From the sequence record MN850623.1: a stretch of DNA of 42,116 nucleotides, one strand, 5' to 3'. The stretch's first letter is position 1. Each line of letters begins with the position of its first letter. The notes under the pieces were generated by a model. The model saw nothing but the letters and a program-made list of their open reading frames with translations. It had not been told where the DNA came from and did not search any database. The stretch comes from Escherichia phage sortsyn. The position numbers and the translations under genes are program-made. Shown piece after piece: positions 25,056 through 42,116 of the stretch.

Positions 25056-25238
25056 ATGCGTCCCCCGGTAACGCTGGCACAATTCGAAGCAACGAAGCGC
25101 GAGATCGCGGCGGGCTGGGTAGCAGTACCAGCCGATCCTGACACCTCGATCGACTGGGGCAACGTCGCGGCTCATGCCGTGGTGATCTTCCTGTGCGTCT
25201 GTGGTCTGCTGTGGCTGGCCTCGACCTTTATCAGATAA
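25056..25238 (+). CDS. Small membrane protein
   Basis: Start at ATG 25056 (the ORF-track extension runs through the terminator); C-terminal TM helix. Confidence 0.35.
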   Translation: MRPPVTLAQFEATKREIAAGWVAVPADPDTSIDWGNVAAHAVVIFLCVCGLLWLASTFIR

Positions 25239-25303
25239 CGCTTGCATGATGTACGCCCCGGCGATATGCTGGGGCCTTTCCACCCAACGAGAGAGATCGA
25301 ACA

Positions 25304-26064: not shown

Positions 26065-26137
26065 TCACGCTTCCGTAACCGCCGATAATCCTCCGCGTAA
26101 CCCTGTGACACTCAGGCGATAACCGGAGGATTTTTTT

Positions 26138-28704: not shown

Positions 28705-28743
28705 TAGTTTGCGTGTATAATGCCGATGATATGACAAACGGAG

Positions 28744-29295: not shown

Positions 29296-29325
29296 TCACG
29301 CCACTAACGACGAATACCGGAGATT

Positions 29326-31563
29326 ATGATGGCACGAGCAACGAAGAAGGCGCAGAACTGGCAGGAATGCGCACGTAATAAGTTAAGCGCCGCGATCGGG
29401 AGCGAGGAGTCCAGTCGTAAGAAGATGATCGAAACGGCCCGTTTCGTCCGCATTCCGGGCGCACAATGGGAAGGATCGACGAACTCCGGCTTTGCGATGG
29501 ATGATGAACGATTCCAGAAATACCCTCGATTCGAGCTTAACAAGGTCGGGCGCGAGGTGGATCGCATTATCACCGACTACCGCCTGAACCGCATCAATGT
29601 TACTTTCCGCCCGAAGGACACCCAGGCCTCCGAAGAACTGGCGGACAAGTTAAACGGCAAGTTCCGCGCAGACTTCCAGGAGTCGAACGGGCCGGAGTCC
29701 GTGGACAATACCTACGACGACGGCGTGACGGGCGGAATGGGCGCTTTTCGCATGGACACCGAACTGGAGGACGAGTTCGACCCGGACAACGAGGCCCGGC
29801 ATATTGTTTTCTATCCGATCTATGATCCGGCCTCGTGCCTGTTTATCGATCAGGACTCCAAAATGTACGATCGTTCGGATGCCATGTGGATGGCGGAGCT
29901 ATTCAGCATGACCCCAGACAAGTACGAGGAGAAATATCCCGACGCGCTCGCCCCGGAGGACCTGCTGGCGATGGACACCGGGAAGCAATTCGACTGGGCC
30001 ACGAAGGACGCGATCTATCTGGCGCGTTACTACGAGGTGAAGATCGAGGACACCACCGTGATCTCCTATAAGAACCCACTCACCGGGGACGTGGAGGTAT
30101 ACGACGAGGACGAGATCGAGCAGATCGAGGACGAGCTTAAGGCCGGAGGCTGGGAGCGCCAGAAGGACCGCAAGGTGAAACGCCGTAAGGTCTATTGCGG
30201 CCTAATGTCCGGCGGTGAATGGATCGAGGAGCCGAAGCTGATCCCGTTCGAATGGATCCCGATCTTCGTGTTCAACGCCCGCCGCTCGTTTATCGACAAC
30301 ATGGAGCGCGTAAGCGGTCACGCGACCCAGGCCCTCGACGCGCAACGTCTGGAAAACCTGATCGTGTCCATGATGGCGGACCAGGCCGCGCAGTCTGGCG
30401 GCGATAACATCCCGATCATGGATATCGACATGATTCCCGGCAAGCTGGCGGACGCCTGGGGGGAACGTAACACGAAGCGCCCGGCATACTTGCCCGCGAA
30501 ATCGCTCCGTAATGCCGCTGGTGAGGTCGTGCAGCAAGCCGGGCCACTGGGTTACACGCCATCGACTCCGCTCTCTCCAGCGCTGGCGGCGGTCCTCCAG
30601 TACACCGGGAGCACTATCCAGCAGATCGTCGGATCCTCCCAGGTCGAGGCCCTTCCGTCGAACCTTGCGACCGAAACCGTGGAGGCTATTTTCGCCCGCA
30701 TGGACGGCCAGGGCGCTCTCTACATGGACAACCTGGGGAAAACCCTCCGCCATTGCGGGCGTGTTTACCTCAGCGCGGCCCGCAAGGTCTACGGCTCGGA
30801 AAACTACGTCCGAATCAAGAACGAGGACGGGACCGACGATCTCGTGTTAATGACCGGGAAAGTGATCGACCGCGACACGGACGAGGCGATCGCGATTAAC
30901 GACCTCAAGCGCGGAAAATATGAGGTCGAGGCCGACGTGGGCGAGTCCAGCAGCACCAAACGGACTGCAACCGTCCGCAGCCTGACGACGCTCCTCCAGT
31001 CGATGGCACCAGGCGACCCGAACGCCGCCGTAGTCATGGGCCTGATCATCATGAACATGGACGGCGAAGGCTTGCAGGACTTCAAAGAGTACAGCCGCCG
31101 CCAGCTTCTCCTTAACGGCATTATCAAGCCGCAGACGGACGAAGAAAAAGCCCTTGTTCAACAGGCCCAGCAAGCGGCCCAGCAGCAGGAAAACCCGGAG
31201 ATGGTAGCCGCTCAGGGCGTAGCGCAGCAGGGACAGGCCGCAGTGATGGAGCAGGAGAACAAGCGCTTAGAATTGCAACTCAAGGCGCAGAGCACCGCGT
31301 CCGACGGCAATCTGAAACAGGCGCAGACGGTCAAGACGATGGCAGAGGCGGCAGCAATCCCGCAGGATCAGCTATTGAGCGCGATCGCCGTCCTCCAGAA
31401 GTACGTGAGCCAGCAGAACAGCGACGCCCACAAACAGGCGGATCTGTTCCTCAAGGCGCAGGGGCAAGGCCACAACCAGCAGGAGGATCGGAACGCTCGC
31501 GAGATGGCAGAACGCCAGGCGCAGCAGTCCGCCGATCGCCAGTTAGGACTCGCTGGCCTGTAA
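29326..31563 (+). CDS. Portal protein (P22 gp1-like)
   Basis: Colinear similarity to P22 portal as recalled (FYEV...EDT, KRRKVY, IPIFVF segments) and a Gln/Ala-rich C-terminal barrel region (LVQQAQQAAQQQENPEMVAAQGVAQQGQAAV). Confidence 0.92.
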   Translation: MMARATKKAQNWQECARNKLSAAIGSEESSRKKMIETARFVRIPGAQWEGSTNSGFAMDDERFQKYPRFELNKVGREVDRIITDYRLNRINVTFRPKDTQASEELADKLNGKFRADFQESNGPESVDNTYDDGVTGGMGAFRMDTELEDEFDPDNEARHIVFYPIYDPASCLFIDQDSKMYDRSDAMWMAELFSMTPDKYEEKYPDALAPEDLLAMDTGKQFDWATKDAIYLARYYEVKIEDTTVISYKNPLTGDVEVYDEDEIEQIEDELKAGGWERQKDRKVKRRKVYCGLMSGGEWIEEPKLIPFEWIPIFVFNARRSFIDNMERVSGHATQALDAQRLENLIVSMMADQAAQSGGDNIPIMDIDMIPGKLADAWGERNTKRPAYLPAKSLRNAAGEVVQQAGPLGYTPSTPLSPALAAVLQYTGSTIQQIVGSSQVEALPSNLATETVEAIFARMDGQGALYMDNLGKTLRHCGRVYLSAARKVYGSENYVRIKNEDGTDDLVLMTGKVIDRDTDEAIAINDLKRGKYEVEADVGESSSTKRTATVRSLTTLLQSMAPGDPNAAVVMGLIIMNMDGEGLQDFKEYSRRQLLLNGIIKPQTDEEKALVQQAQQAAQQQENPEMVAAQGVAQQGQAAVMEQENKRLELQLKAQSTASDGNLKQAQTVKTMAEAAAIPQDQLLSAIAVLQKYVSQQNSDAHKQADLFLKAQGQGHNQQEDRNAREMAERQAQQSADRQLGLAGL

Positions 31564-31594
31564 CTGGTCGGACCGCACGAAAAGCTAAAGACAA

Positions 31595-31620
31595 GCCCGG
31601 CAAGTCCGGGCTATTCTTTG
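31595..31620 (+). terminator. Terminator-like hairpin after portal
   Basis: Stem GCCCGG/CCGGGC then TATTCTTTG. Confidence 0.5.
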
Positions 31621-31658
31621 CCTCGACACATCACTAAACCATTACAAAGGAGTTTTGA

Positions 31659-31880
31659 ATGGCCCGATCACTGATAGCAGTCAAAGACGCCGCCGGGGAA
31701 AAGTATCTCCTCCCGGTCCGTAACATCGTGAGCGTGACGGAGTTCCCGGACAACGAGCGCCGCGTGGAGGTCAAAGTCCGCGAGCCGATCAACGGCCCAG
31801 ACGGGCGGATCTGTGGGTACGAGTTAAATCTGTATTACTCGCCAATGTCGATCGCACAATTCGAAGGGGCTTACGCATGA
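31659..31880 (+). CDS. Hypothetical protein
   Basis: 73-aa ORF. Confidence 0.45.
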   Translation: MARSLIAVKDAAGEKYLLPVRNIVSVTEFPDNERRVEVKVREPINGPDGRICGYELNLYYSPMSIAQFEGAYA

Positions 31881-32290
31881 ACCAGGAAAAAGTAATCCGC
31901 GCCGTTCTTCTGGCTCAGGCCGACGAGATGGGGATCCTCGACAAAGTGAAGGCGCACGAGGCCCGCCTGGCGGCTCGCTTCATCCAGCAGCCGACCGAGG
32001 AGGATCTGGCGGCGTATGGCCTGGCGCTGGCGCTGGTCGGCGCTCGCGCTTCGGAACTCATGACCAACGCGGAGCCGCAGGTGAAGGCGGGCGAGGTGGA
32101 ACCCGCTCCGATCGAGGTGGACCTGATGCCGACGGCGGAGCAGGTGGAGGCGGGCATTAAATCCCTGTGGGACGTCATACCGGGCGCGATGGATCAAGTC
32201 GTGCAGGACGACCCGGACGGCTCGGACGCGGTATTTTCTGACGCGGTGACGTTCGTCTGGCAAGGCATGATCGGCGCTCGCGCCAAATAG
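31877..32290 (+). CDS. Hypothetical protein
   Basis: 137-aa ORF; stop TAG is the first triplet of cassette copy F. Confidence 0.45.
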   Translation: MNQEKVIRAVLLAQADEMGILDKVKAHEARLAARFIQQPTEEDLAAYGLALALVGARASELMTNAEPQVKAGEVEPAPIEVDLMPTAEQVEAGIKSLWDVIPGAMDQVVQDDPDGSDAVFSDAVTFVWQGMIGARAK

Positions 32291-32330
32291 CACGAATTGC
32301 TAAAACAGCCTGATTATCAAATGTTATATT
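32288..32330 (+). promoter_or_regulatory. Promoter cassette copy F: palindrome TAGCACGAATTGCTA plus TGtTATATT extended -10
   Basis: Palindrome 32288-32302; hexamer 32325-32330. Confidence 0.55.
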
Positions 32331-32380
32331 GATTGTGTCGGCGGGGAATGGTCCCCGCCACTGACCAGAGAGACTACAAA

Positions 32381-32818
32381 ATGACTACTAAAACTTACAT
32401 CAAAAAACAATTCATTTGCCTGTGCGTCGCGGACGGTACACGCTCCAGCTTCTACAAACGCGGGGAGACTTACGTCTCCGACCACGACCTGGGCGACCTG
32501 TACAGCGTGGAGAAGCACACGAAGGACAACTCCGACCCGGCGCTGGTCCTGCTGGAGACTCGCGAGATCGAGATCGTCTACGAGGAGCCGACCGCCGAGC
32601 GCATCGCGGAACTTGCTCTCCCACTGCTGGAGAATGGCCTCCAGACCCTCCGCGCTTCGTTCTACATGGCGGAACAGAAGTTCCTCGCCGACATTGCCAG
32701 CATTCGCCAGCTTACCTACAAAGGCCCAATCGAAGGCGACTACGTGGCAGCAGCCGACAGCGCTCGCGACGTAACCCCTCGCAAGGACGACGACGTGGAG
32801 GACGCCGAGATCGTATGA
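32381..32818 (+). CDS. Hypothetical protein, first gene after promoter cassette copy F
   Basis: Start at ATG 32381 downstream of the cassette 5'UTR hairpin (ORF track 32333). Confidence 0.5.
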   Translation: MTTKTYIKKQFICLCVADGTRSSFYKRGETYVSDHDLGDLYSVEKHTKDNSDPALVLLETREIEIVYEEPTAERIAELALPLLENGLQTLRASFYMAEQKFLADIASIRQLTYKGPIEGDYVAAADSARDVTPRKDDDVEDAEIV

Positions 32819-33081
32819 AACATCACTATTTAGCCTTTCCGAGCGGGGGAGTCGCATCCCTCGCGAAGCTGGCCCAGGTGGAGACGGAACTCCACGACCT
32901 GGACGGCTTCCTGACCGGGCCAGAGGGGAACCGCTGGCGCATCGTAGCCAGTGAGAGGATCCACGGCTTCGAGAAGGACGGGGGAGACGTCGCGCCGTAC
33001 TACGTGATCCCCGCTTCGGTTCCACCGCATCACGAGGCGCTCTACCTATCCCAGCAGGTCGTAAGAGCCGCCACGAAATAA
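32815..33081 (+). CDS. Hypothetical protein
   Basis: ATGA overlap with upstream stop; 88 aa. Confidence 0.45.
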   Translation: MKHHYLAFPSGGVASLAKLAQVETELHDLDGFLTGPEGNRWRIVASERIHGFEKDGGDVAPYYVIPASVPPHHEALYLSQQVVRAATK

Positions 33082-33089
33082 CCCGCCAC

Positions 33090-33101
33090 ACTGGGGGGAT
33101 C
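33090..33101 (+). repeat. 12-mer ACTGGGGGGATC, copy 2 of 3
   Basis: Exact repeat, immediately after a stop codon. Confidence 0.5.
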
Positions 33102-33131
33102 GTTAATCGCGATCTCCCCTGTTTGCATTTT
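33093..33131 (+). terminator. Terminator-like hairpin
   Basis: Stem GGGGGGATCG/CGATCTCCCC (one G-U wobble) then U-rich tail; contains the ACTGGGGGGATC 12-mer. Confidence 0.5.
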
Positions 33132-33207
33132 CCCGCCGTCCTCGCTTAAACTTACACCCGCCACCGATGGGCGAAAACATCGCGTATGCAACAAACGAGG
33201 ATCTACA

Positions 33208-34203
33208 ATGAAATTCCGAAATATGTTTTTGAAATATTACGCAGAGCACGACGACGGATCTCAGGGAGGCGGCGACGGCGGCGCAGCGGCGTATGAGGCT
33301 CAACAAGGGCAGCAGGGCGAAAACGCCGACGACAATCCAGACACCGACCCGGACGAGAAGGATCCCGGCAACGCGGACACCGACCCGGACGAGCAGGACC
33401 TGGACGAAAACGGCGAGCCTAAGACGAAGGAAGGCGAGAACGGCGAGGACGACGATCAGGAGGAGGAGTTCCTGTTCGATGGTAAAGCCGTGACCGTTGA
33501 ACCGACCGACGAGGACGACCAGGAAGGCGACACCGAACTGGTGAAACGTCTCCGCGCTCAACTTCGCGAGCAGAAAAAACAGATTAAGGGATCCACCCAG
33601 AAGAAGGATCCGCAGGAAATCCCCGCCGATATGCCGCGTAAGCCGGAAATGGGCGACGAGGGGATCGACTGGGACCCGGAGAAGTACGCCGAAGCGCTGG
33701 ACAAGTGGACCGAGGATAAGGCAGCTTTCCAGCAGCACCAGGCGGCGCAGGAAGCGAAGCGCGAAGCGTTCGGGAAGAAATTCCAGGAAGGCCAGACGCG
33801 CTACCAGACGGAACGCGCAAAGGCGATCAAGAAGTACGCAGGATTTGAGAAGGCCGAAGCGGCGATCGCAGAACTGCCGGAGCCACTCCAGGCGGGCCTG
33901 ATGATCACCAGCCAGAACCCGACGGCGCTCGTGATGGCACTGGGACGCAATGCTGATTTGCGTAAACAGGTCGAGGACGCTTACAATAACGATCACATTG
34001 CGCTGGGCTATCTTATCCGCGATATTGAAAGCCGAGCGGGATCCGCACCGAAGGCGAAGCAGCAGCTTAACAAAACGCCGGACGTTAAGGGCCAGAATGG
34101 AGTCGCTAACGTGGGCCAACTCGAAGCCCTTCGCAAGAAGGCCGAAGAAACCGGGGATTATACGGCATACTTCGCGGCGAAAGAGAAGCGGGAAAAGAAG
34201 TAA
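33208..34203 (+). CDS. Scaffolding protein
   Basis: Acidic, helical, Lys/Glu-rich 331-aa protein between portal and coat. Confidence 0.7.
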   Translation: MKFRNMFLKYYAEHDDGSQGGGDGGAAAYEAQQGQQGENADDNPDTDPDEKDPGNADTDPDEQDLDENGEPKTKEGENGEDDDQEEEFLFDGKAVTVEPTDEDDQEGDTELVKRLRAQLREQKKQIKGSTQKKDPQEIPADMPRKPEMGDEGIDWDPEKYAEALDKWTEDKAAFQQHQAAQEAKREAFGKKFQEGQTRYQTERAKAIKKYAGFEKAEAAIAELPEPLQAGLMITSQNPTALVMALGRNADLRKQVEDAYNNDHIALGYLIRDIESRAGSAPKAKQQLNKTPDVKGQNGVANVGQLEALRKKAEETGDYTAYFAAKEKREKK

Positions 34204-34237
34204 ACTAAATTAATCACTCATCGGTGGAGATAGGATA

Positions 34238-35497
34238 ATGGCTAACCAGTTAGCGAAGGATCTCGAAATTGCTTTCGAGGAATATGTGGAGAGCTTCGAG
34301 GCGTCTTGCGTCGTGTCGAAGAACGCGGCGAAGTTCCGCCCCGGTGATCAGACGATGCAACGCGCCGGGGACGTGATCCACCGTCCGCAGCGTTACCACG
34401 CTGATATCATCGAAGGTCTGGATCTGACCGGACAAGCCGGGACCGATATCGTCCAGCGCCTCGTCCCTTCCGTGTTCAAAGAACCTCAGAACGTTCTCTT
34501 TAAGCTGGACGCTCGCGAAATGCGCGACCCAGAGCAGCGTAAAGAGATGGGCCGAGCAGCGGGCCAGCGCGTAGCCGCGAAGATCGACTCCGATCTGATC
34601 GCTACCGCAGCGCGTTACGCGACCCACGTCGCCACCACTGGCGACAACAGCACCGGAACGCTAGGCGGCGACCTGTGGGACGCAGCAGCGCAGATCGGCG
34701 CACAAATGACCGCGATCGGCATCCCGCAGGGTACGAATAAAAAAGCCTTCTGGAACTCGTTCTCAAACAAGTTCCTGGCGAAAGAACTCGGATCCCGCGC
34801 ATATGCTCAGGGCGCAACCCTGACCGCATACGAAAAGGCGCAGATCCCGGACGTGGCTCGCTTCATGTCCTTTGAGACGGATATTTCCGCACGTCTGGGC
34901 GCTGGCTCCGCAGCAGCGATCACCCTGGCAGCGGCTCCGGCTCACAAAGTCGAAGCGAAAGACGCGAACGATCTCCCGGTCGATAACCGCCAGGGCGTGA
35001 TCACCGTGTCCGCAGCCCACGGCCTGGTCGCTGGTGATGCCTTCACCATCGCGGGCGTGAACATGGTCCATATGATCAGCAAGGACACCACGGACACCCC
35101 TCAAGTGTTCCGCGTCCTGGGCGTGTCTGGTAACAACATCACGATCACCCCTCAGATCCTGCCGCCGGACAACGCCGATCTGCCGTCTCGCCCTTACGCG
35201 AACGTGGACGCGAACGCCGCCAACGGCGCGGAACTGACCGTTATCAACAACACGGCATCTAATGCTAACATCCTGTGGGCCGACGGCTCCGTGGAACTGA
35301 TGTTCGGTAATCTGGCGTTCCCTACTGGTCAAGGTCCGCAAGTAATGCGAGCCACCACCAAACAGGGCGCGACTCTGATCATGTCCTACGCGTTCGATCA
35401 CATCGCGGGCGTGACCACCTGCCGTTACACCACGCTTTACGGTTGTTCCGTCCTCGTGCCGGAATACGTGGGCCTGGTACTGCCTAACCAGCAGTAA
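34238..35497 (+). CDS. Major capsid (coat) protein, P22 gp5-like
   Basis: Position after scaffold, size 419 aa, local similarity to P22 coat as recalled (FTIAGVNMV, ILWADGSVELMFGNLAFPTGQ). Confidence 0.9.
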   Translation: MANQLAKDLEIAFEEYVESFEASCVVSKNAAKFRPGDQTMQRAGDVIHRPQRYHADIIEGLDLTGQAGTDIVQRLVPSVFKEPQNVLFKLDAREMRDPEQRKEMGRAAGQRVAAKIDSDLIATAARYATHVATTGDNSTGTLGGDLWDAAAQIGAQMTAIGIPQGTNKKAFWNSFSNKFLAKELGSRAYAQGATLTAYEKAQIPDVARFMSFETDISARLGAGSAAAITLAAAPAHKVEAKDANDLPVDNRQGVITVSAAHGLVAGDAFTIAGVNMVHMISKDTTDTPQVFRVLGVSGNNITITPQILPPDNADLPSRPYANVDANAANGAELTVINNTASNANILWADGSVELMFGNLAFPTGQGPQVMRATTKQGATLIMSYAFDHIAGVTTCRYTTLYGCSVLVPEYVGLVLPNQQ

Positions 35498-35513
35498 GAC
35501 GCGCAGCAATACA

Positions 35514-35543
35514 AAAGGGGAGCCATTGGCTCCTCTTTTTTTA
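35514..35543 (+). terminator. Rho-independent terminator after the coat gene
   Basis: Stem GGGGAGCC/GGCTCCTC then TTTTTTT. Confidence 0.8.
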
Positions 35544-35554
35544 TGGCATATACT
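35526..35554 (+). promoter_or_regulatory. Putative promoter overlapping the coat terminator
   Basis: -35 TTGGCT, 17-bp spacer, -10 TATACT. Confidence 0.3.
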
Positions 35555-35586
35555 AGCCGGGAAACATCACACAAAGAGGATTTACA

Positions 35587-36117
35587 ATGAACCAGCGTTC
35601 CTATTCAAAAACCGCCATCGCCGCAGTTTTAACCGTAATGCTTTACTCCCGCCCCGCTATTCTGGGACGCGAACGCATCACCGGGCTGGAAACCATGCGC
35701 CGCCCGCACACTGACGGCCCCTACGTCCGCGCCATCTTCCCGGAGCAAGAAGCCGCCGAGCGTCTGGAGTCTGGCTTCTGGGTGGATCATCCGAACAAAC
35801 TCCCGGCGCTGGATGCCGCGATCGCCGAGGCAGCGGAGAAGGAGGCCAAAAAGGACAAGCAGGAGGCCGACGACGAAGAAGCCGCCCGCCTGAAAGAGAA
35901 GCAGGACGCAGAGGCCCAAAATAAGGCCCCAGAATCGACCGCTACGGCCTCCGAGCAAAAAGACGCACCGAAGGCCGACGAAGTGAAGAACGAGCCAGAG
36001 AGCGGCGCAGAGGCTCAGGAATCCACCCAGGAAGCGAAGGCCGACGAATCCAAGCCGAAAGACGGCGAGAAGGTAGACGGCGCGAAAGTTCCGACCGACA
36101 AGAAGGCTAAGAAATAA
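35587..36117 (+). CDS. Hypothetical protein with Lys/Glu/Ala-rich C-terminal tail
   Basis: 176-aa ORF between coat and gp4-like gene, GAGGA SD. Confidence 0.5.
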   Translation: MNQRSYSKTAIAAVLTVMLYSRPAILGRERITGLETMRRPHTDGPYVRAIFPEQEAAERLESGFWVDHPNKLPALDAAIAEAAEKEAKKDKQEADDEEAARLKEKQDAEAQNKAPESTATASEQKDAPKADEVKNEPESGAEAQESTQEAKADESKPKDGEKVDGAKVPTDKKAKK

Positions 36118-36119
36118 TT

Positions 36120-36575
36120 ATGGCGACTTTGCAGAAGATCCAGATCGTTAACCTGGCGTTACGCCGTGGCGGGCTGGCGTCGTCTGCTGTTCTCATGATG
36201 CCAGATCCCCAGCAGTTAGCCGACGCGCTGGAGGATCTGGAGGGCTTAATGGCTACGGTGATTCAGGACGGCGTGGCCTTACCCTACATCTTCACGACCA
36301 ACGCCGACGGCGTACCGGACGGGAACGAGGACTCCGGGCTGGACCTGTGGACCAAAGAGGGGATCGCCCTCAAGCTGGCCCAGCGGATCCTCCTGGATAT
36401 GCAGCGCGATTTAACGCCTGAAATGAACGCAGTTTTAAAGGAGCAATGGGACATTATTAAGATCCAGTTCTACACGGTCCCAAGCCTGAAACAGCGTAAC
36501 GATATGCCTACGGGGGCGGGTAATCGTCCGTTCTTCCCGGAGGACCGTTTCTACTATGACGGGAGCGACAAATGA
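36120..36575 (+). CDS. Head-to-tail adaptor / tail accessory factor (P22 gp4-like)
   Basis: LEDLEGLMATVIQDG and RNDMPTGAGNRPF parallel P22 gp4 DDLEAMMAEWYQDG and SRMPTGSGNSF as recalled. Confidence 0.85.
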   Translation: MATLQKIQIVNLALRRGGLASSAVLMMPDPQQLADALEDLEGLMATVIQDGVALPYIFTTNADGVPDGNEDSGLDLWTKEGIALKLAQRILLDMQRDLTPEMNAVLKEQWDIIKIQFYTVPSLKQRNDMPTGAGNRPFFPEDRFYYDGSDK

Positions 36576-36652
36576 AACCGACCAAAGGCAAAAAGAAGCC
36601 GCAGGGCAGCAAGAAGCCGAAGAAACCAGCTAAGGCTAAAGGGGGCTACTGA
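36572..36652 (+). CDS. Possible 26-aa lysine-rich micro-ORF (MKPTKGKKKPQGSKKPKKPAKAKGGY)
   Basis: Start overlaps the gp4-like stop (ATGA) and its stop overlaps the gp10-like start (TGATG). Confidence 0.3.
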   Translation: MKPTKGKKKPQGSKKPKKPAKAKGGY

Positions 36653-38091
36653 TGCGCAACCCAGAACGCGGGCAGGAGATCACGATCCCGCTGTTATATG
36701 GCGATGGTCGCCGATCGACGACGCTCGACTGGTCAACCCGGCTACCGGAGAACATGCTGGCGGTCGCCCGCACCATTAAGGGCGGTAACGGCTATATGCG
36801 CATGATGCCGGGGATCGTGAAGGACAAGGACGTGGCGGGCGTCTCTCGCGGCGCAGACTGGAACACGGTCAAAAATGCGACTTACCGCGTGATGGGTGAT
36901 CAGCTGTACCTCTCCGGGGAGTCCGTGGCGACCATCTCCGGCGTGGACCGTACTCCTATGGCACATAGCCGGAACCGCGTCGCCATCGTGTCCCAGAACT
37001 CCATGATCATGATCGGCTACGACGGGAGCCGGAACAGCTTCTCCAACTGGACCGGGGAAGATGATCCGACGTATGACTGGGGCGACATTAACGACGTGTG
37101 CCACCTCCGCCAGCGCTTTATCTTCTCCACGAAGAACTCGGACACCTTCTGGATCTCCGACCTGCTGGACGAGACGAAGCCAGACAAGACCGCCCCGGCG
37201 TACCGCGCCGAAACCATGCCGGACGGCATCGTGGCGATCAGGGCGTGGCGTGATTATGTCGTTTGTTTTGGGACCGCCTCGATCGAGTTCTTCGGCCTGA
37301 CCGGGGACGATCAGAACGTCTACGCCAGCCAGCCGTCCTACACCGTCGAAGCCGGGACGATCGGGCGTGAAAGTGTCTGCGAGTATATGGAGACTTTCGC
37401 CTTTCTTACGTCGCCATTCTCCGGCGATTTGACGATCGCCATGATGAACCCCGGCGGCGGTACGTGGAGCGAGATCGCCAGCGCGGAGATCAAGAAGATT
37501 CTGGCGGACTATGACGTGGCAGACCTCGCCGACGTCCGTCTGGAGTCGCTCAGTTTTGAGACTCACAAACTTCTGATCGTCCACTTGCCGGACAAAACGC
37601 TGGTTTACGATCACCCAGTAAGCCAGGCGCAGGGCGTCCCGGTCTGGTCGTACATTAAGACGGGCATCAACGGGATCGGACCTTACCGCGCCGTGGACTT
37701 CGTGAACGAGGGCCGCGTGATCACCTGTGGCGACAAGCTGGATCCGTATCTGGGGAAAATGGATAACACCACGTCGGCCCAGTATGGCGAGGACCAGGAG
37801 ATCGTCCTGTATACGCCGCTATTGTGGGCCGAGAATGCGATCCTTGCAGACTTCCGCATGGATGCCAGCACCGGGGGCGACTCCGTAGCGAGCCGGATCT
37901 GGCTCTCCGCGACCGAGGACGGGATCGTGTACGGGCAGGAGAAAAGCATCGCCTACAATACCCCGTATCAGTGGCTACAGAACGTTATCTTACGCGTAGT
38001 AGGCCGAGTCCGTTCCGCTATCGGCTTTAAAATCCGCACCGTAGGCGCAACCCCGGCGACTCTCTCGCGGGCGCGTGTCCGTGTGACCTAA
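36652..38091 (+). CDS. Tail hub protein (P22 gp10-like)
   Basis: GVSRG...NA.YRV, AWRDYVVCFGTASIEFFGLTG, ITCGDK, WLSATEDGIVYG, IGFKIR segments colinear with P22 gp10 as recalled. Confidence 0.9.
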   Translation: MRNPERGQEITIPLLYGDGRRSTTLDWSTRLPENMLAVARTIKGGNGYMRMMPGIVKDKDVAGVSRGADWNTVKNATYRVMGDQLYLSGESVATISGVDRTPMAHSRNRVAIVSQNSMIMIGYDGSRNSFSNWTGEDDPTYDWGDINDVCHLRQRFIFSTKNSDTFWISDLLDETKPDKTAPAYRAETMPDGIVAIRAWRDYVVCFGTASIEFFGLTGDDQNVYASQPSYTVEAGTIGRESVCEYMETFAFLTSPFSGDLTIAMMNPGGGTWSEIASAEIKKILADYDVADLADVRLESLSFETHKLLIVHLPDKTLVYDHPVSQAQGVPVWSYIKTGINGIGPYRAVDFVNEGRVITCGDKLDPYLGKMDNTTSAQYGEDQEIVLYTPLLWAENAILADFRMDASTGGDSVASRIWLSATEDGIVYGQEKSIAYNTPYQWLQNVILRVVGRVRSAIGFKIRTVGATPATLSRARVRVT

Positions 38092-38094
38092 TCC

Positions 38095-38106
38095 ACTGGG
38101 GGGATC
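38095..38106 (+). repeat. 12-mer ACTGGGGGGATC, copy 3 of 3, directly abutting the tail-needle ATG
   Basis: Exact repeat, here in the ribosome-binding position. Confidence 0.5.
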
Positions 38107-38877
38107 ATGCCAGTTAAACAGAAGATTCAGCAGCTAAACACCAGCAGCCTACCGCCGGGAACGTCGATCGCTTTCCGGGACTGGCTGGTGAGGCTGAACG
38201 GAGTCACGAAGGAGACGGGGGACGTCGCAGACGGAGCGGAGTCCACCGCAGACGAGGCGAAGGAGATCGCCGAGGCCCAGCGCATCCGAAACGACCAGCA
38301 GGACGTGACGCTGGCCCTCCACGATCAGCGACTCGACAGCGCAGAGAACCGCCTCACGCTGTTAGAGGACGATGTGGACTACCTGCTGGACAAGGTGATC
38401 GATCTGGAGACGCGGATCGAGGATCTGGAGGACTGGCGCGTGTACATGACCCGCCAGAAATCCGAGGTCGTCTACAGCGGGATCTCGCTTAACATCCCCA
38501 CGACGCCCTCCAACCTCCTGACGCTCCTCGCCGCCCTCACCCCGACGTCCGGCAGTCTGGCCCCGTTCTTCAACACGGCGACCGGGCGACTCGTGGCGCT
38601 GAACAAGAACAAGGATCTTAAACTCAAGATCAGCGTGGTGGGGGCGTTCGCGGGCGGGACCACTAACAGGTCGATGGAGATCACTTTCGGGACCGTCGTC
38701 CCCGACACTCTCGTGGTGAGCCGCAACCCGGCAACCCCTACGGATAACTTATTGTTCAACACCTTTTTCTCCGTGGAGGAGGGGGACGACATTACCAGCC
38801 CAGGGATCAACATGACGATCCAGTCCAACGGCTCCGCGTTCACGGCAACCCAGATCAAACTAATCGCGACGCAGTAA
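38107..38877 (+). CDS. Tail needle protein (P22 gp26-like) with C-terminal knob domain
   Basis: N-terminal coiled coil EAQRIRNDQQDVTLALHDQRLDSAENR similar to gp26; longer C-terminal region. Confidence 0.8.
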   Translation: MPVKQKIQQLNTSSLPPGTSIAFRDWLVRLNGVTKETGDVADGAESTADEAKEIAEAQRIRNDQQDVTLALHDQRLDSAENRLTLLEDDVDYLLDKVIDLETRIEDLEDWRVYMTRQKSEVVYSGISLNIPTTPSNLLTLLAALTPTSGSLAPFFNTATGRLVALNKNKDLKLKISVVGAFAGGTTNRSMEITFGTVVPDTLVVSRNPATPTDNLLFNTFFSVEEGDDITSPGINMTIQSNGSAFTATQIKLIATQ

Positions 38878-38886
38878 GGGGACCGC

Positions 38887-39288
38887 ATGGAACAAAAAGA
38901 GATGATCGAACTCGTGCCAGACTCCGGCGTGGACCTCCTCCACGCCTGGGGCTTGCCGGAGTGGCCTCGCAATGCCGAGGCTAAATATTTTCTGTGGGAT
39001 CGTTGTTGCGTGTTTGCCATCATGGCGAACGATGAAGGCGGGATCGATGGTCATATGGCGATGGATCCCCCCAGACGCAGACGGTCACGCGAGGCTTGTC
39101 TGGCTTTTCTGTACCACTGGGGCCACTATGCGATCCGCGTTCCGGTCCTTATGAGTCACAAACACGCCCGGAACGTGGTCCGAAAAGTCGGATTTGTTGA
39201 AAGCCCTCCCCAGCTTGTACAATTGGTGGACGGCAGAGAGGCGGAAATTATTTTCTTGAGGAGAGGACCAAATGGGCGGAGCAATTAG
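38887..39288 (+). CDS. gp14-like virion assembly/ejection-associated protein (assignment by position)
   Basis: 133-aa ORF between tail needle and gp7-like gene, where gene 14 sits in P22-like phages. Confidence 0.45.
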   Translation: MEQKEMIELVPDSGVDLLHAWGLPEWPRNAEAKYFLWDRCCVFAIMANDEGGIDGHMAMDPPRRRRSREACLAFLYHWGHYAIRVPVLMSHKHARNVVRKVGFVESPPQLVQLVDGREAEIIFLRRGPNGRSN

Positions 39289-39934
39289 CGGGATCGGTGG
39301 GGCCGTCTCGTCCGTTTTAGGCGGTATCGGTACGAGGAAGGCGCTCAAGCAGCAGCAGAAAGCGACCGATAAACAGATGGACTACCAGCGCGAACTCCAG
39401 GCGCAACAGGCGGAATGGTTAAGCCCGTTCCGTGAGGCGGGGACGAACGCTATCCCTCAACTGACTGCGATCGCGGGCCAGCCTATCGATCGAGAGCAGC
39501 TACTTTCCGACTACTACGGCGGGCAGGAGTTCGCCATGAACGAGGAAGCGGCTCGACGTTCCCAGCTTGCCAGCGCAGAAGCGACGGGCGGACTCGGATC
39601 CACGGCTACGTCGAACAGCCTCGCGGCGATCGCGCCTACGCTGGGCCAGAACTACCTGAACGCGATGCAAGCGCAGCAGCAAGACATGTTTAACCAGCTT
39701 TTGGGCCTGACTAACGTCGGCTTATCTGGCGCTGGCGCTCAGTCCGCAGCGGCTACCGGGACCACCAACGCACTGACCGCACTCGCGGGCCAGAAGGGCC
39801 AGATCCTGGGACAAAAAGCGGCCTTGCCGTGGAATACCGCAGCAACGGCTAACAATCAAATGGCACAAGGCGCAGCGCAGGACGCTAACACGTTTACGTC
39901 CATGTTCGGCGGCATGTTCGGGAGCATGATCTAA
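39272..39934 (+). CDS. Ejection protein (P22 gp7-like)
   Basis: Gly/Ala/Gln-rich 220-aa protein in the conserved gp14-gp7-gp20-gp16 position. Confidence 0.65.
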   Translation: MGGAISGIGGAVSSVLGGIGTRKALKQQQKATDKQMDYQRELQAQQAEWLSPFREAGTNAIPQLTAIAGQPIDREQLLSDYYGGQEFAMNEEAARRSQLASAEATGGLGSTATSNSLAAIAPTLGQNYLNAMQAQQQDMFNQLLGLTNVGLSGAGAQSAAATGTTNALTALAGQKGQILGQKAALPWNTAATANNQMAQGAAQDANTFTSMFGGMFGSMI

Positions 39935-41259
39935 TGGCGCAATTACTAGGCGGTGGCGGTGGCGCAGATCCGGGCGATCTGTGGAACAACCTCCAGAACA
40001 TCCAGGCGGCGGGGACTAACACCCTCGCCAATATCGGGCAGATCCAGGCCAACACGGCGCAGCAGATCCAGAACCGACAGCAGGGCATGGCGACCCAGGC
40101 GGCGCAAGCTAATCAGGCGCAAATGGCCCAGTTCAATAAGGACTGGCAAGCAGCAGCGGGCGACCCGTCGAAGATCTCCGAACTGGCCTATAAATACCCG
40201 ACCCAGATCGAAGCACTCCAGAAGCGCCTCGGACTGGTGGATGATATTCGACGCCAGCAGGGATCCCAGCTTGCAAGCCAGGCCGACGTCGCGATCTCGC
40301 AGGGGCCGCAGATGGCCCAGCAATTCGTCCAGCAGAACGCCCCGGCGCTCCAGGCGCTGGGAATCGATCCGCAGGTGGCCTACCAGTCGGCAGCGCAGGA
40401 CCCGGAAGCGTTCAAGCGCTCAGTCCAGGCGCTCCACCTGGCGAGCAATACCAGCAAGGACCAACTGGACTACGCGAAAGAGTACATGAAGAACCAGACC
40501 GTAATCAGGGGGCAGGACGTCACCGCAGCGAGCAACGCGGCAGACCGAAATCTGAAATATATCGGACTCCAGACCGAGCGACTCAACACGAGGATCGCGC
40601 AGGAAAAGAACGATATTGAGCGACAGAAGTACGTGCAGCAGCAGCAAAAAATGCAAGCCGACAGCCTCAACACGAAGCGCGATTTTCTCCAGACCTACGA
40701 GACGCAACTCGCCCCGATCACCACGGCGATCGATCAGGCCCAGCGACTCCTCCAGCGTAAGGATCTGGCCTACGTGACGGGCAACCTGGGCGCGATTAAC
40801 AGGGGCGCGTCGTGGGTTACTGGTGGCGGCGATGCCACGGCGGAGATCATGAACCAGTTTAACCAGCTTAAAGACCAGGCCCGCGTCGCGGGTATTCAGT
40901 CTTTGCGTGGTACTGGTCCAGTGACCGAGCAGGAGGGCCGCGCAGCCGCTCAGGCGCTGATCAACGCAGACCCTCGCACCATGAGCGAGCAGCAGCTTAA
41001 GGACGTCATGACGCGCTACGTGACCGCACTCAGCAAGGGCAAGGACGCGATCGAGAAGTCGCAGGGCGGGCGCGTGGAGTCCTACCGTCGCGAGATCAAG
41101 CAGGACGACGCGAAACAGGAAGCCGTCGGACGCCTCAGCGCTGGGGGGATCCCGCAGCAGAACGCGCAAGCCGCGATTAATTACCTGATGCAGAACCCTA
41201 CCCCTAGCGTTAAGGCTCAATTTCAGGAAAAATACGGTTTTCTACCGGAGGGGCTATAA
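39934..41259 (+). CDS. Ejection protein (P22 gp20-like)
   Basis: Gln/Ala-rich 441-aa protein in the conserved position; TAATG overlap. Confidence 0.7.
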   Translation: MAQLLGGGGGADPGDLWNNLQNIQAAGTNTLANIGQIQANTAQQIQNRQQGMATQAAQANQAQMAQFNKDWQAAAGDPSKISELAYKYPTQIEALQKRLGLVDDIRRQQGSQLASQADVAISQGPQMAQQFVQQNAPALQALGIDPQVAYQSAAQDPEAFKRSVQALHLASNTSKDQLDYAKEYMKNQTVIRGQDVTAASNAADRNLKYIGLQTERLNTRIAQEKNDIERQKYVQQQQKMQADSLNTKRDFLQTYETQLAPITTAIDQAQRLLQRKDLAYVTGNLGAINRGASWVTGGGDATAEIMNQFNQLKDQARVAGIQSLRGTGPVTEQEGRAAAQALINADPRTMSEQQLKDVMTRYVTALSKGKDAIEKSQGGRVESYRREIKQDDAKQEAVGRLSAGGIPQQNAQAAINYLMQNPTPSVKAQFQEKYGFLPEGL

Positions 41260-42116
41260 ATGGCGAACATCTTCGACCAGTTTGATCAGAATATGCCGGA
41301 AAGTGCGGAAGCGCTCCCAAATCAGATCCCGCAGCAAGCGGGATCCACTGGCGGAGGTTATGCTGATCTGGTGGAGAGCGCCGGGGCCAAGTGGGGGATC
41401 CCTGCTGGCCTCATGACTCAGTTAATGGGTAAAGAATCCAGCGGCGATCCCACTGCGACCTCCAGCAAGGGCGCAATGGGGCTTACTCAGGTGATGCCGG
41501 GAACGGCCCGCGATATGGGCTACGACCCGGCGCAACTGGCGCAGGATCCGGCAATGCAAGCGGACGCGGGGGCGCAGTATCTTTCCCGCATGTATCAGCG
41601 CTACGGAGATTGGGGGACGGCTCTCCAGGCTTACCACGACGGCCCCGGCAACGTAGACAAACAACTGGCGGGCCAGGCAACCCCAGGCCCGGAGGGGCGT
41701 CAATATGTGGATGATCGGTTTAATCAATGGACTGGGCGAGGCGCTGGCAGCGATGGCAGCGGCGAACCTACTCAATACGCAACCAGCGCACGATCTCCGA
41801 GCGCTGGCGGTAATGTTTTCGACCAGTTCGGAGACTACCAGGCACCAGCAGCCGCAGACGGAGCCGGAGCACCCGGAGCCGATCAACAAGTCCCAGCCGT
41901 CGCCGCTGGCAATGCACTTAATCAAACGGGATCTGATGGCGCACAAGGGGCGGCAGCGCCGAACGGTAACGGAGAGCAGGGCGGAGCTAATCAGCCCGGA
42001 CAAACCGATCCAAACGAAGAAGCCGCCCGAAACTGGGAAAAGTTAGGCCAGACCGTCCTCCACTCGCTGGATCAGGGCGCTCGCGGCGTGGCTCAGACGG
42101 GGATCGACCTGCTGAA
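41260..42116 (+). CDS. Ejection protein with N-terminal soluble lytic transglycosylase (SLT) domain; 3'-partial, no stop before window end
   Basis: GKESSGDPTATSSKGAMGLTQVMPGTA and ALQAYHDGPGNV match SLT catalytic Glu and AYNxG-like motifs; frame open to the last base and in phase with the ORF at the window start. Confidence 0.7.
   Translation, partial: MANIFDQFDQNMPESAEALPNQIPQQAGSTGGGYADLVESAGAKWGIPAGLMTQLMGKESSGDPTATSSKGAMGLTQVMPGTARDMGYDPAQLAQDPAMQADAGAQYLSRMYQRYGDWGTALQAYHDGPGNVDKQLAGQATPGPEGRQYVDDRFNQWTGRGAGSDGSGEPTQYATSARSPSAGGNVFDQFGDYQAPAAADGAGAPGADQQVPAVAAGNALNQTGSDGAQGAAAPNGNGEQGGANQPGQTDPNEEAARNWEKLGQTVLHSLDQGARGVAQTGIDLL

What the first reader, a model, noticed from the sequence alone, without database searches (positions are those of the whole stretch)
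41260..42116. Window ends join in frame: probable circular or circularly permuted genome with one ~993-aa SLT-domain ejection protein across the junction
The ORF starting at 41260 (SLT domain with catalytic-Glu region GKESSGD and AYHDGPGN) has no stop before the window end. The frame of the 5'-partial ORF at the window start is open from base 2. Joining base 42116 to base 1 keeps the frame (…GIDLL-N-TPISLANMISQAV…), giving one protein ending at 2125. This fits a headful-packaging genome deposited as an arbitrary linearisation, and an ejection protein carrying its own peptidoglycan-degrading domain.
Basis: partly seen in the sequence, partly recalled or inferred. Interest (0 to 1): 0.6.

Follow-up and report, generated by a model that had tools for sequence, protein, structure and literature searches.

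The report
Split phage ejection gene, hidden overlapping gene
The window is the complete circular map of a published coliphage (sortsyn) cut inside one gene for a cell-wall-cutting DNA-ejection protein, which is ordinary, but the flexible linker of that gene also carries a second, out-of-frame gene that evolution has clearly been protecting.

Summary
Observation confirmed. The ORF from 41260 runs off the end. Bases 42115-42116 plus base 1 make AAC (Asn), and the frame continues to the stop at 2123-2125, giving 993 aa.

The join is real. Thirteen related phage genomes carry the junction as one uninterrupted stretch. IME_EC2 is gapless and identical around it, and the window in turn bridges IME_EC2's own record ends. 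The window is Escherichia phage sortsyn (MN850623, 42,116 bp, Murrayvirus). Its record annotates only the C-terminal 700 aa as sortsyn_1.

The protein has an N-terminal SLT lytic transglycosylase domain (catalytic Glu59, invariant in 118 homologues), a Gly/Ala/Gln linker, and a P22 gp16-type "DNA transfer" part. It sits after gp7- and gp20-like genes and before the tailspike. Relatives are already annotated this way, and E. coli P22-like prophages carry SLT+Phage_P22_gp16 fusions, so this part is known. Headful packaging is inferred only from an Sf6-type large terminase.

New here: a 113-aa ORF in the +1 frame (41705-42046, sortsyn_62) lies inside the linker. Main-frame synonymous change nearly vanishes there (0.03 against 0.32). 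Substitutions are synonymous in the alternative frame (14 of 22 variable codons) and almost never in the main frame (1 of 23). It is probably a real embedded gene of unknown function.

The parts
41260..42116 (+). 5' part of the split gene: aa 1-285 plus the first two bases of codon 286
   Evidence: ORF and frame arithmetic. The start is the same as the annotated start of IME_EC2 gp26.
1..2125 (+). 3' part of the split gene: last base of codon 286 (Asn), aa 287-993, and the stop at 2123-2125. The deposited record annotates only 23-2125 as sortsyn_1 (700 aa, hypothetical protein).
   Evidence: P0027 is sortsyn_1, 100% identical, on a contig of 42116 bases.
41368..41676 (+). SLT (GH23 family-1 lytic transglycosylase) domain, aa 37-139. 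Catalytic Glu59 codon GAA at 41434-41436. Motifs ES, GLTQV and AYHDGPGN.
   Evidence: Pfam PF01464, E 8e-23. Slt70 1QSA alignment. K58-E59 invariant in 118/118 homologues.
41740..42045 (+). Gly/Ala/Gln/Pro-rich linker of the main protein (aa 161-262), dual-coding with the embedded ORF
   Evidence: Composition. Main-frame pN/pS is 1.27 in aa 207-250 against 0.25-0.31 elsewhere.
41705..42046 (+). Embedded +1-frame ORF of 113 aa (sortsyn_62). GGAGGGG at 41691-41697 lies 7 nt upstream of the ATG. The N-terminus is a hydrophobic helix and the C-terminal part a conserved basic block.
   Evidence: P0121. Present in all 13 genomes examined. Selection signature. AF2 helices 3-24 and 67-80.
41879..42007 (+). 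Block where selection acts on the +1 frame (alt peptide KSQPSPLAMHLIKRDLMAHKGRQRRTVTESRAELISPDKP)
   Evidence: Main-frame synonymous difference is 0.031 against 0.320±0.055, z = -5.2. Alt frame has 14 synonymous-only and 8 aa-changing codon columns; main frame has 1 and 22; Fisher p = 2.3e-5.
1..1975 (+). Most of the P22-gp16-type 'DNA transfer' part (PHROG 770 match covers aa 139-944, which begins before the window end). A confidently modelled all-helical domain lies at 647-1771 (aa 502-876).
   Evidence: phrog_770, E 1e-108. P22 gp16 hits the same PHROG at 2e-266. AF2 pLDDT 80-90.
39272..41259 (+). The two preceding ejection-protein genes: gp7-like (39272-39934) and gp20-like (39934-41259)
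   Evidence: Pfam P22_gp7 E 6e-21 and Inj_translocase E 3e-12. PHROGs 598 and 2534.
2153..4405 (+). Tailspike directly downstream: P22 head-binding domain plus a colanic-acid-degrading body
   Evidence: Pfam Head_binding E 5e-34 and phrog_6117 E 2.5e-246.
27082..28704 (+). Large terminase of the Sf6/P22 type; the basis for the packaging inference
   Evidence: PDB 4IDH (Sf6 gp2), E 3.8e-85. Pfam Terminase_3.

Best explanation
The window is the whole 42,116-bp genome of Escherichia phage sortsyn (Murrayvirus), written as a linear record of a circular map. The cut falls inside one gene.

**The gene product.** Rejoined, the gene encodes a 993-aa virion ejection protein with three parts:
- an N-terminal SLT lytic transglycosylase domain;
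- a roughly 100-aa low-complexity linker;
- a helical P22-gp16-type part of about 730 aa.

**Likely mechanism (inferred by analogy with P22 and T7).**
1. The colanidase tailspike clears capsule, the needle is released, and the gp7-like, gp20-like and this protein leave the head through the tail.
2. The SLT domain cuts glycan strands locally to open the peptidoglycan.
3. The gp16-like part helps form or extend the trans-envelope conduit to and through the inner membrane for the DNA.

**Packaging.** DNA is most likely packaged by the headful mechanism, because the terminase is Sf6-like. Virion DNA would then be circularly permuted, and any linear record has an arbitrary or annotator-chosen start.

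**The embedded gene.** Nested in the linker, in the +1 frame, is a second gene (41705-42046, 113 aa) with its own Shine-Dalgarno sequence and ATG. Its product has a hydrophobic N-terminal helix and a strictly conserved basic helical block. It is probably a small membrane-associated late protein. Its role is unknown; my guess is a partner or regulator of entry or exclusion.

**Shown versus inferred.** Shown: the join, the circular map, the domain identities, the gene order, and the selection pattern in both frames. Inferred: virion location, enzymatic activity, packaging mode, and expression and role of the embedded protein.
For: **Join and circular map.**

**Identity with sortsyn.** Length, genus and nearest relative match the table in PMC7552041. 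sortsyn_1 and sortsyn_62 are 100% identical to window ORFs and sit on a 42116-base contig.

**SLT domain.**

**gp16 relationship.**
- phrog_770 at E 1e-108, and P22 gp16 is in the same PHROG.
- BLASTP of aa 263-345 against P22 gp16 aa 65-134 gives E 2e-4.
- The same slot in E. coli P22-like prophages holds a protein with SLT plus PF26808 (Phage_P22_gp16) domains.

**P22-type virion module.** Portal, coat, gp10, needle knob, gp7 and gp20 are all present.

**Terminase.** Matches Sf6 gp2. Sf6 packages by the headful mechanism (PMC4678813).

**The full-length main frame is coding.**
- The ORF is intact at 993-1047 aa in all 13 genomes.
- pN/pS is 0.29 just upstream of Met294.

**Embedded gene.**
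- Synonymous-rate trough, z = -5.2.
- 14 of 22 variable codons are synonymous-only in the alternative frame against 1 of 23 in the main frame, p = 2e-5. This includes AGC<->TCC Ser switches and AGG/AGA/CGG Arg switches.
- pN/pS is 0.38 in the alternative frame against 1.72 in the main frame.
- The SD and ATG are invariant and built from minority codons: GGG 26%, CAA 19%, TAT 30%.
- T at main-frame third positions is 0.42-0.50 in the first 24 alternative codons against 0.14-0.19 elsewhere. This is what makes the alternative N-terminus hydrophobic.
Against: - No reads, end mapping, proteomics or expression data were available.
- Close homologues carry no precomputed PF26808 hit, only PF01464. 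Direct similarity to P22 gp16 is weak.
- The helical domain has no solved-structure match. No clear transmembrane helix is present (maximum Kyte-Doolittle score 1.07).
- The embedded protein has no homologue outside this clade and no family match.
- Alternative-frame constraint is demonstrable only in the C-terminal half of the embedded ORF.
- The 13 genomes are related, so substitution counts are not fully independent.
- The AF2 model of the embedded protein is of low confidence (mean pLDDT 58).
Confidence: 0.85

Rival explanations
1. The two ends are not contiguous in nature. The window would be an incomplete contig or an excised or integrated element, with two unrelated partial genes at its ends that happen to share a frame.
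For: A frame match alone has a 1-in-3 chance. The ends share no overlap that would prove circular assembly.
Against: Thirteen independent genomes carry the junction sequence uninterrupted. Adjacent bases correspond exactly, and closure with IME_EC2 is reciprocal. All homologues are single ORFs of about 1000 aa. The window contains no host genes and no integrase, and IME_EC2 has none either.
Confidence: 0.01
2. The map is circular only because an assembler collapsed short direct terminal repeats or cohesive ends. Virion DNA would then have fixed ends elsewhere in the genome and would not be headful-permuted.
For: No end data exist for this genus in the papers held. Illumina Nextera assemblies cannot distinguish the cases without a coverage analysis.
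Against: The large terminase is close to Sf6 gp2 over both domains (E 3.8e-85). Portal and coat are P22-type. Sf6 and P22 are headful packagers. A 42.1-kb genome fits a P22-size T=7 head with a few per cent redundancy; this last point rests on established knowledge of P22 (41.7-kb genome, about 43.5 kb packaged).
Confidence: 0.12
3. The +1 ORF is not a gene. The near-invariant block at 41879-42007 would be a nucleic-acid element (a recombination linker between modules, an internal promoter, or an RNA structure), and gene callers pick the ORF only because the linker has odd codon statistics.
For: Long alternative-frame ORFs are common in 60%-GC DNA. The ORF has no homologues outside the clade. 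Distant relatives lack the conserved peptide. The depression of synonymous change begins about 30 codons before the ATG.
Against: The changes that do occur in the block are overwhelmingly silent in the +1 frame and amino-acid-changing in the main frame (14:8 against 1:22, p = 2e-5). They include multi-base Ser and Arg codon-family switches. A sequence element would not produce that pattern. Folding energy is unremarkable on both strands (z = +0.2 and -0.3). Rfam gives no match.
Confidence: 0.15
4. The +1-frame block is read by programmed +1 (or -2) ribosomal frameshifting from the main frame. This would give a short SLT protein of about 260 aa with an alternative basic C-terminus alongside the full-length product. 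The +1 frame would not be initiated independently.
For: Alternative-frame purifying selection is demonstrable only in the C-terminal half of the ORF. The N-terminal third shows pN/pS of 1.19 in the alternative frame.
Against: No conserved slippery or stop-adjacent shift motif lies upstream of the block; that region is variable and carries indels. The SD and ATG are invariant and made of minority codons. T at third positions is enriched 2.5-fold, which keeps the alternative N-terminus hydrophobic in every lineage.
Confidence: 0.08

Closest known systems
IME_EC2 gp26 (YP_009784225, 'DNA transfer protein' / 'transglycosylase') and its orthologues in Lumpael, KMB41, ST231, IME279, sortkaff and sortregn
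   Same: Orthologous, at 89% aa identity for IME_EC2. Same start, same architecture and same neighbours. Most of these records annotate the gene at full length, 1007-1047 aa.
   Different: In the sortsyn record the gene is cut by the linearisation and only aa 294-993 are annotated. A 220-nt patch (window 882-1103) is replaced relative to IME_EC2.
P22 gp16 (609 aa), the third ejection protein of P22
   Same: Same PHROG (770). Same position after gp7 and gp20. A weak direct match to gp16 residues 65-134. Presumed role in carrying DNA across the inner membrane.
   Different: P22 gp16 has no peptidoglycan hydrolase domain. [quoted passage not shown] Here, and in many P22-like prophages, an SLT domain and a linker precede the gp16-like part.
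SLT+Phage_P22_gp16 (PF01464+PF26808) proteins of E. coli, Klebsiella, Cronobacter and Shigella (Sf101) P22-like prophages, about 790 aa
   Same: Same two-part design and the same gene slot between Inj_translocase and the tailspike. The SLT domains are 60-70% identical.
   Different: The C-terminal part is much more diverged: close homologues of the window protein lack a PF26808 hit. The linker is different (Gln/Pro/Ser-rich), and no +1 ORF lies in it.
T7 gp16 internal core protein
   Same: It works alike. An N-terminal lytic transglycosylase on the largest ejection protein opens the peptidoglycan, and the C-terminal part reaches the inner membrane and cytoplasm (PMC8954989).
   Different: Outside the SLT domain there is no detectable sequence or fold relationship. 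The window protein is about 325 aa shorter. [quoted passage not shown]
Rz1 embedded in Rz (lambda, P22), the classic out-of-frame gene within a gene in phage late operons
   Same: A complete small ORF in the +1 frame inside a larger late gene, with its own ribosome-binding site.
   Different: The embedded protein has no Cys and no lipobox, so it is not an o-spanin. The host gene is a virion ejection protein, not a lysis gene. The phage has a separate Rz-like spanin (IME_EC2 gp07).

Membership tests
SLT / GH23 family-1 lytic transglycosylase domain (Pfam PF01464) | Profile match above the curated threshold | tested here: met
   80.6 bits against a cut-off of 21.3, aa 37-139, covering profile positions 2-108 of 117.
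SLT / GH23 family-1 lytic transglycosylase domain (Pfam PF01464) | Catalytic Glu followed by Ser (ES motif), aligned to Slt70 Glu478 | tested here: met
   GKE59S aligns to RQE478S of 1QSA. K58-E59 is invariant in 118/118 homologues.
SLT / GH23 family-1 lytic transglycosylase domain (Pfam PF01464) | Downstream motifs GLMQ-like and AYNxG-like | tested here: met
   G74-L-T-Q77-V78 and A124-Y-H-D-G128-P-G-N are at least 95% conserved.
SLT / GH23 family-1 lytic transglycosylase domain (Pfam PF01464) | Muralytic activity yielding 1,6-anhydro-MurNAc products | not testable with these tools
   Needs a zymogram or HPLC of the digestion products.
P22 gp16-type ejection ('DNA transfer') protein | Sequence-profile relationship to P22 gp16 | tested here: met
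   phrog_770 at E 1e-108 over aa 139-944. P22 gp16 hits phrog_770 at 2e-266. Direct BLASTP is only E 2e-4.
P22 gp16-type ejection ('DNA transfer') protein | Match to Pfam PF26808 (Phage_P22_gp16) | tested here: inconclusive
   The model is absent from the local Pfam copy. Precomputed hits list PF26808 for the prophage homologues, but only PF01464 for the close homologues P0001-P0056.
P22 gp16-type ejection ('DNA transfer') protein | Third gene of the gp7-gp20-gp16 cluster, downstream of the needle and gp14-like genes and upstream of the tailspike | tested here: met
P22 gp16-type ejection ('DNA transfer') protein | Packaged in the virion and released into the cell at infection | not testable with these tools
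   Needs virion proteomics or ejection assays.
Headful (pac) packaging phage with circularly permuted, terminally redundant DNA (P22/Sf6 type) | Circular genetic map | tested here: met
   Reciprocal closure with IME_EC2. Adjacent-base correspondence in three genomes.
Headful (pac) packaging phage with circularly permuted, terminally redundant DNA (P22/Sf6 type) | Large terminase of a known headful clade | tested here: met
   Sf6 gp2 (4IDH), E 3.8e-85, over aa 67-538. Sf6 packages by the headful mechanism.
Headful (pac) packaging phage with circularly permuted, terminally redundant DNA (P22/Sf6 type) | Permuted ends and terminal redundancy in virion DNA | not testable with these tools
   Needs read-start analysis or restriction mapping. 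The papers held give no end data.
T7 gp16 family (internal core protein) | Homology of the non-enzymatic body to T7 gp16 | tested here: not met
   No PDB sequence hit beyond SLT domains. No fold match for aa 287-993 (best E 0.13). It works like T7 gp16 but is not a member of that family.
Embedded out-of-frame phage gene (Rz1-in-Rz type) | Complete ORF inside another gene, with a conserved start signal and purifying selection in its own frame | tested here: met
   Alternative-frame selection is shown for the C-terminal half only.
Embedded out-of-frame phage gene (Rz1-in-Rz type) | o-spanin features (lipobox Cys, Pro-rich periplasmic part) | tested here: not met
   None of the 13 alternative-frame proteins has a Cys in the N-terminal region forming a lipobox; the window protein has no Cys at all.
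Embedded out-of-frame phage gene (Rz1-in-Rz type) | Translation of the embedded frame | not testable with these tools
   Needs ribosome profiling or mass spectrometry.

The most novel reading that the evidence does not exclude
The linker of a phage ejection protein is a dual-coding region. A 113-aa protein arose by overprinting in the common ancestor of Murrayvirus and Sortsnevirus and is now under stronger selection than the linker it overlaps. It has a hydrophobic N-terminal helix and an invariant basic helix, and is made from the same late mRNA as the SLT-gp16 protein. It could be a dedicated partner of the entry machinery: for example an inner-membrane factor that controls or guards against the SLT/ejection complex (superinfection exclusion or self-protection), or an extra ejected protein. 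The probability given is that the ORF is a real, expressed, selected gene. A specific link to entry or exclusion is much less certain, at about 0.2.
Probability: 0.7. Interest if true: 0.55.

Novelty: new member of a known kind. Interest (0 to 1): 0.38.

Why it matters
**The record.** MN850623 splits and under-annotates its largest ejection gene. The SLT part is unannotated, and the rest is labelled "hypothetical protein sortsyn_1". The Sortsne and Kc237 records make a related error: the label "lytic transglycosylase" sits on a truncated CDS that lacks the SLT domain. Anyone mining these phages, which are candidates for therapy cocktails, for lysins or virion enzymes would miss or mislabel the domain.

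**The biology.** P22-type virions can carry their peptidoglycan cutter on the gp16 homologue, as T7 does. This qualifies a general statement in a recent review. It also fits the idea that the hydrolase domain moves between ejection proteins.

**The embedded gene.** It is a clean, testable case of overprinting inside a structural gene. It explains why gene callers repeatedly break this gene. A single base change that is silent in the main frame would knock it out.

Tried and rejected
- **Terminal overlap between the window ends.** None found.
- **Fetching MN850623 from the phage collection.** Not held. An exact look-up of sortsyn_1 contigs also found nothing on record.
- **End or packaging data in the papers.** Nothing on termini in the Danish wastewater, KMB41 or Kc237 papers. 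The IME_EC2 paper is not held.
- **Fold search of the gp16-like part against the PDB.** No significant match (best E 0.13, TM below 0.15). Weak alpha-pore-forming-toxin hits were ignored as noise.
- **Transmembrane helices in the main protein.** None are convincing.
- **Three database proteins starting at the same internal Met (P0027, P0031, P0032).** I first suspected a shared physical genome end. This was rejected: in the Logan contigs the gene is internal and intact, and only the gene call is truncated.
- **RNA structure or a known RNA family as the cause of the conserved block.** Folding z-scores are near 0 and Rfam is empty.
- **Pfam and PHROG searches of the embedded protein.** Nothing found.
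- **The embedded ORF in distant relatives.**
  - L019 and the prophage L005 lack it.
  - L018 and L020 have +1 ORFs from the same ATG but with unrelated sequence, so they neither support nor refute it.
- **Literature search for an embedded gene in ejection-protein genes.** Nothing specific.
Full report
**1. The observation**

The ATG at 41260 directly follows the TAA (41257-41259) of the preceding gene and has GGAGG a few bases upstream. The frame then runs to the last base of the window. That span is 857 nt, or 285 codons plus AA. With base 1 (C) it reads AAC (Asn). The frame starting at base 2 is open to TAA at 2123-2125 and is the frame of the listed ORF 23..2125. The rejoined ORF is 2982 nt, or 993 aa, and reads ...QTGIDLL-N-TPISLANMISQ... 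across the join. The ends share no overlapping sequence.

**2. Is the join real?**

A 1200-nt probe centred on the artificial junction hits 13 phage records, each as one uninterrupted piece. The best is Enterobacteria phage IME_EC2 (Murrayvirus EC2, 41,510 bp, circular record) at 99.2%. The alignment there has no gap and is identical for more than 180 nt to the left and 300 nt to the right of the junction.

Whole-genome comparison gives these correspondences:
- Window 1..18366 matches IME_EC2 18439..1.
- Window 18367..42116 matches IME_EC2 41510..18440.
- 97% of the window aligns.

So the window's ends are adjacent bases in IME_EC2, and IME_EC2's ends are adjacent bases in the window. This reciprocal closure shows one circular map. 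Lumpael (27367|27366) and sortregn (31327|31328) show the same adjacency.

**3. What the window is**

A table in Olsen et al. 2020 (PMC7552041) lists Escherichia phage sortsyn as MN850623, 42,116 bp, 59% GC, Murrayvirus, nearest relative IME_EC2. The protein database holds two matching entries, each 100% identical to a window ORF and each on a 42116-base contig:
- "hypothetical protein sortsyn_1", 700 aa, equal to ORF 23..2125.
- "hypothetical protein sortsyn_62", 113 aa, equal to ORF 41705..42046.

The window is therefore that deposited genome. Its record annotates only aa 294-993 of the split gene, starting at an internal Met. The genomes in that study were Illumina assemblies, and no end determination is described.

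**4. The protein**

*SLT domain.* Residues 37-139 match the Pfam SLT domain at 80.6 bits against a cut-off of 21.3. They align to the catalytic region of E. coli Slt70, with E59-S60 opposite E478-S479. Among 118 homologues, K58-E59, G74/L75/Q77/V78, A124-Y125...G128-P-G-N131 and Y149 are invariant or nearly so.

*Linker.* Residues 161-262 are a Gly/Ala/Gln/Pro-rich linker.

*gp16-like part.*
- Residues 139-944 match PHROG 770 ("DNA transfer protein") at E 1e-108. P22 gp16 matches the same PHROG at 2e-266.
- Direct BLASTP to P22 gp16 is weak but sensibly placed: aa 263-345 against gp16 65-134, E 2e-4. It includes the motif that the junction cuts.
- An AlphaFold model of aa 287-993 gives a confident all-helical domain at aa 502-876 (pLDDT 80-90). 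The first 215 residues are poorly ordered.
- The model has no significant PDB fold match.
- No convincing transmembrane helix is present.

**5. Context**

The upstream genes are P22-type: portal, coat, gp4-like, gp10-like, needle with Sf6-type knob, a gp14-position ORF, gp7-like (PF25688) and gp20-like (PF16928). Directly downstream is a tailspike with the P22 head-binding domain and a colanic-acid-degrading body. This is the gp7-gp20-gp16 ejection cluster.

In E. coli P22-like prophages the same slot holds a 797-aa protein with SLT plus PF26808 (Phage_P22_gp16). Dozens of such proteins are named "lytic transglycosylase domain-containing protein" in Klebsiella, Cronobacter, Shigella and E. coli. 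Sf101 has one too. [quoted passage not shown] That holds for P22 and Sf6 themselves but not for the wider group.

**6. Mechanism**

This is inferred by analogy with P22 and T7, as reviewed in PMC8954989. After the tailspike digests capsule and the needle leaves, the three ejection proteins exit through the tail. The SLT domain makes a local opening in the murein. The gp16-like part completes the conduit at the inner membrane. In T7 the equivalent domain is needed only when the peptidoglycan is highly cross-linked. Activity, virion location and stoichiometry were not testable here.

**7. Packaging**

The large terminase (27082-28704) matches Sf6 gp2 (PDB 4IDH) at E 3.8e-85 over both domains. 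Sf6 and P22 package by the headful mechanism (PMC4678813). Headful packaging with permuted ends is therefore the most likely state. It remains an inference, and fixed ends collapsed by the assembler cannot be excluded without reads.

**8. Why the record is cut there**

In two Logan contig families the gene is internal and intact, at 1007 and 1044 aa. Even so, the automatic gene calls start at the same internal Met (MISNAVTDAGK...), and a 119-aa ORF in another frame is called over the linker. The Sortsne and Kc237 GenBank records show the same pattern. There the truncated CDS is even labelled "lytic transglycosylase", although the SLT domain lies upstream of it.

In sortsyn the cut lies in the 92-nt gap between the called sortsyn_62 (ends 42046) and sortsyn_1 (starts 23). 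The cut may therefore have been placed in what looked like intergenic DNA. Alternatively it fell there by chance. I cannot tell which.

Main-frame pN/pS between the end of the alternative ORF and Met294 is 0.29, like the rest of the gene. Translation therefore does not start at Met294.

**9. The embedded ORF**

To learn why callers prefer the other frame, I codon-aligned the gene from 11, then 13, genomes: sortsyn, IME_EC2, sortregn, Lumpael, KMB41, ST231, Sortsne, Kc237, IME279, sortkaff and three Logan contigs.

*Synonymous-rate trough.* The pairwise synonymous difference rate averages 0.32 along the gene. It falls to 0.01-0.09 around aa 196-269, while amino-acid divergence there stays normal or high. 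For the block 41879-42007 the rate is 0.031, against 0.320±0.055 in 803 other windows of equal size (minimum 0.189). That gives z = -5.2.

*Direction of selection in the block.* Codon columns in the two frames split as follows:

| Frame | Invariant | Synonymous-only | Amino-acid-changing |
|---|---|---|---|
| +1 (alternative) | 21 | 14 | 8 |
| Main | 19 | 1 | 22 |

Fisher's exact test gives p = 2.3e-5. Examples:
- AGC<->TCC keeps Ser, and AGG/AGA/CGG keeps Arg, in the alternative peptide TESRAEL.
- At the same sites the main frame changes E->V, Q->P and G->S.
- Nei-Gojobori pN/pS for the C-terminal part of the alternative ORF is 0.38 in the alternative frame and 1.72 in the main frame.
- In the N-terminal third, which overlaps the conserved end of the SLT domain, the main frame dominates at 0.37 against 1.19.

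*Start signals.* The alternative ORF starts at the same ATG in all 13 genomes. That ATG is formed by main-frame TAT-GTG of the invariant QYVD. GGAGGGG lies 7 nt upstream. These bases are invariant and use minority codons: GGG 26%, CAA 19%, TAT 30%.

*Hydrophobic N-terminus.* T at main-frame third positions, which are alternative-frame second positions, is 0.42-0.50 in the first 24 alternative codons. Elsewhere in the gene it is 0.14-0.19. This keeps the alternative N-terminus hydrophobic in every lineage.

*The product.* It is 113-122 aa long and has:
- a hydrophobic helix at aa 3-24;
- an acidic, Pro-rich middle;
- an invariant basic block, SPLAMHLIKRDLMAHKGRQRRTVTESRAELISPDKP, modelled as helices at moderate confidence.

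It has no Pfam or PHROG family and only five database clusters, all from this clade. It is absent from a distant relative and from the prophage version.

*Alternatives.* RNA structure and known RNA families are not supported. A +1 frameshift product remains possible but less likely.

*Conclusion.* The linker is probably dual-coding. The embedded gene is real but of unknown function, and it is the cause of the recurrent mis-annotation.

**10. Verdict**

The split gene, its SLT domain and the circular map are ordinary. They are already represented by annotated orthologues, so the direct value is a correction to one GenBank record (and to two others with truncated calls). The embedded +1-frame gene is the only new element. 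It is a variant of a known phenomenon (gene within a gene), and it has a strong comparative signature and a simple decisive experiment.

Noticed in passing
window 41705-42046 (+), strongest at 41879-42007: A +1-frame ORF of 113 aa (sortsyn_62) lies inside the linker of the SLT-gp16 gene. It has a conserved SD and ATG. Main-frame synonymous change nearly vanishes there, and substitutions are silent in the alternative frame. It is probably a real overprinted gene of unknown function.
   Followed up: yes
window 40646 (inside gp20-like gene 39934-41259); IME_EC2 gp27/gp28: IME_EC2 lacks one base here relative to the window. Its gp20-like gene is therefore annotated as two CDSs, while the window has a single 441-aa ORF. 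This is either a sequencing error or a genuine frameshift in IME_EC2.
   Followed up: partly
window 4459-4743 (-): A 94-aa protein with a Tad2-like (Thoeris anti-defence 2, PF11195) domain, E 2e-22. In relatives the same slot just downstream of the tailspike holds different small genes: RyR domain in L008/L009, Sequestin PF21825 in L010, and Phage_gp49_66 in L007. It looks like a variable anti-defence slot.
   Followed up: no
window 882-1103: This is the only stretch of the SLT-gp16 gene that fails to align to IME_EC2 at the DNA level (220 nt here against 260 nt there). It looks like a small mosaic replacement inside the helical part.
   Followed up: no
L011 (Sortsne MK651787) 3143-5736; L012 (Kc237 MW258710) 3161-5841: These records annotate the alternative-frame ORF plus a 5'-truncated CDS labelled '(putative) lytic transglycosylase'. 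That CDS begins downstream of the SLT domain. The intact ORFs of 1015 and 1044 aa are present in the DNA.
   Followed up: yes
window 41703-41709: The alternative-frame start sits in AUAUGUGG, where the AUG overlaps the main-frame GUG (Val150). It is an AUGUG-type site, as described for dual-frame initiation in E. coli (PMC9841429; title and abstract only). It could also allow an SLT-less main-frame product.
   Followed up: no
L018 3001-5922 and L020 3001-6069 (distant homologues): Both have +1-frame ORFs (90 and 137 aa) starting at the homologous ATG within YVD, but their sequences are unrelated to the sortsyn_62 family. L018's ORF again has a hydrophobic start and a basic tail. This may be independent overprinting or chance.
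   Followed up: partly
window 647-1771 (aa 502-876 of the joined protein): A confidently modelled all-helical domain (pLDDT 80-90) has no significant match in the PDB (best Foldseek E 0.13). The P22-gp16-type body remains structurally uncharacterised.
   Followed up: partly
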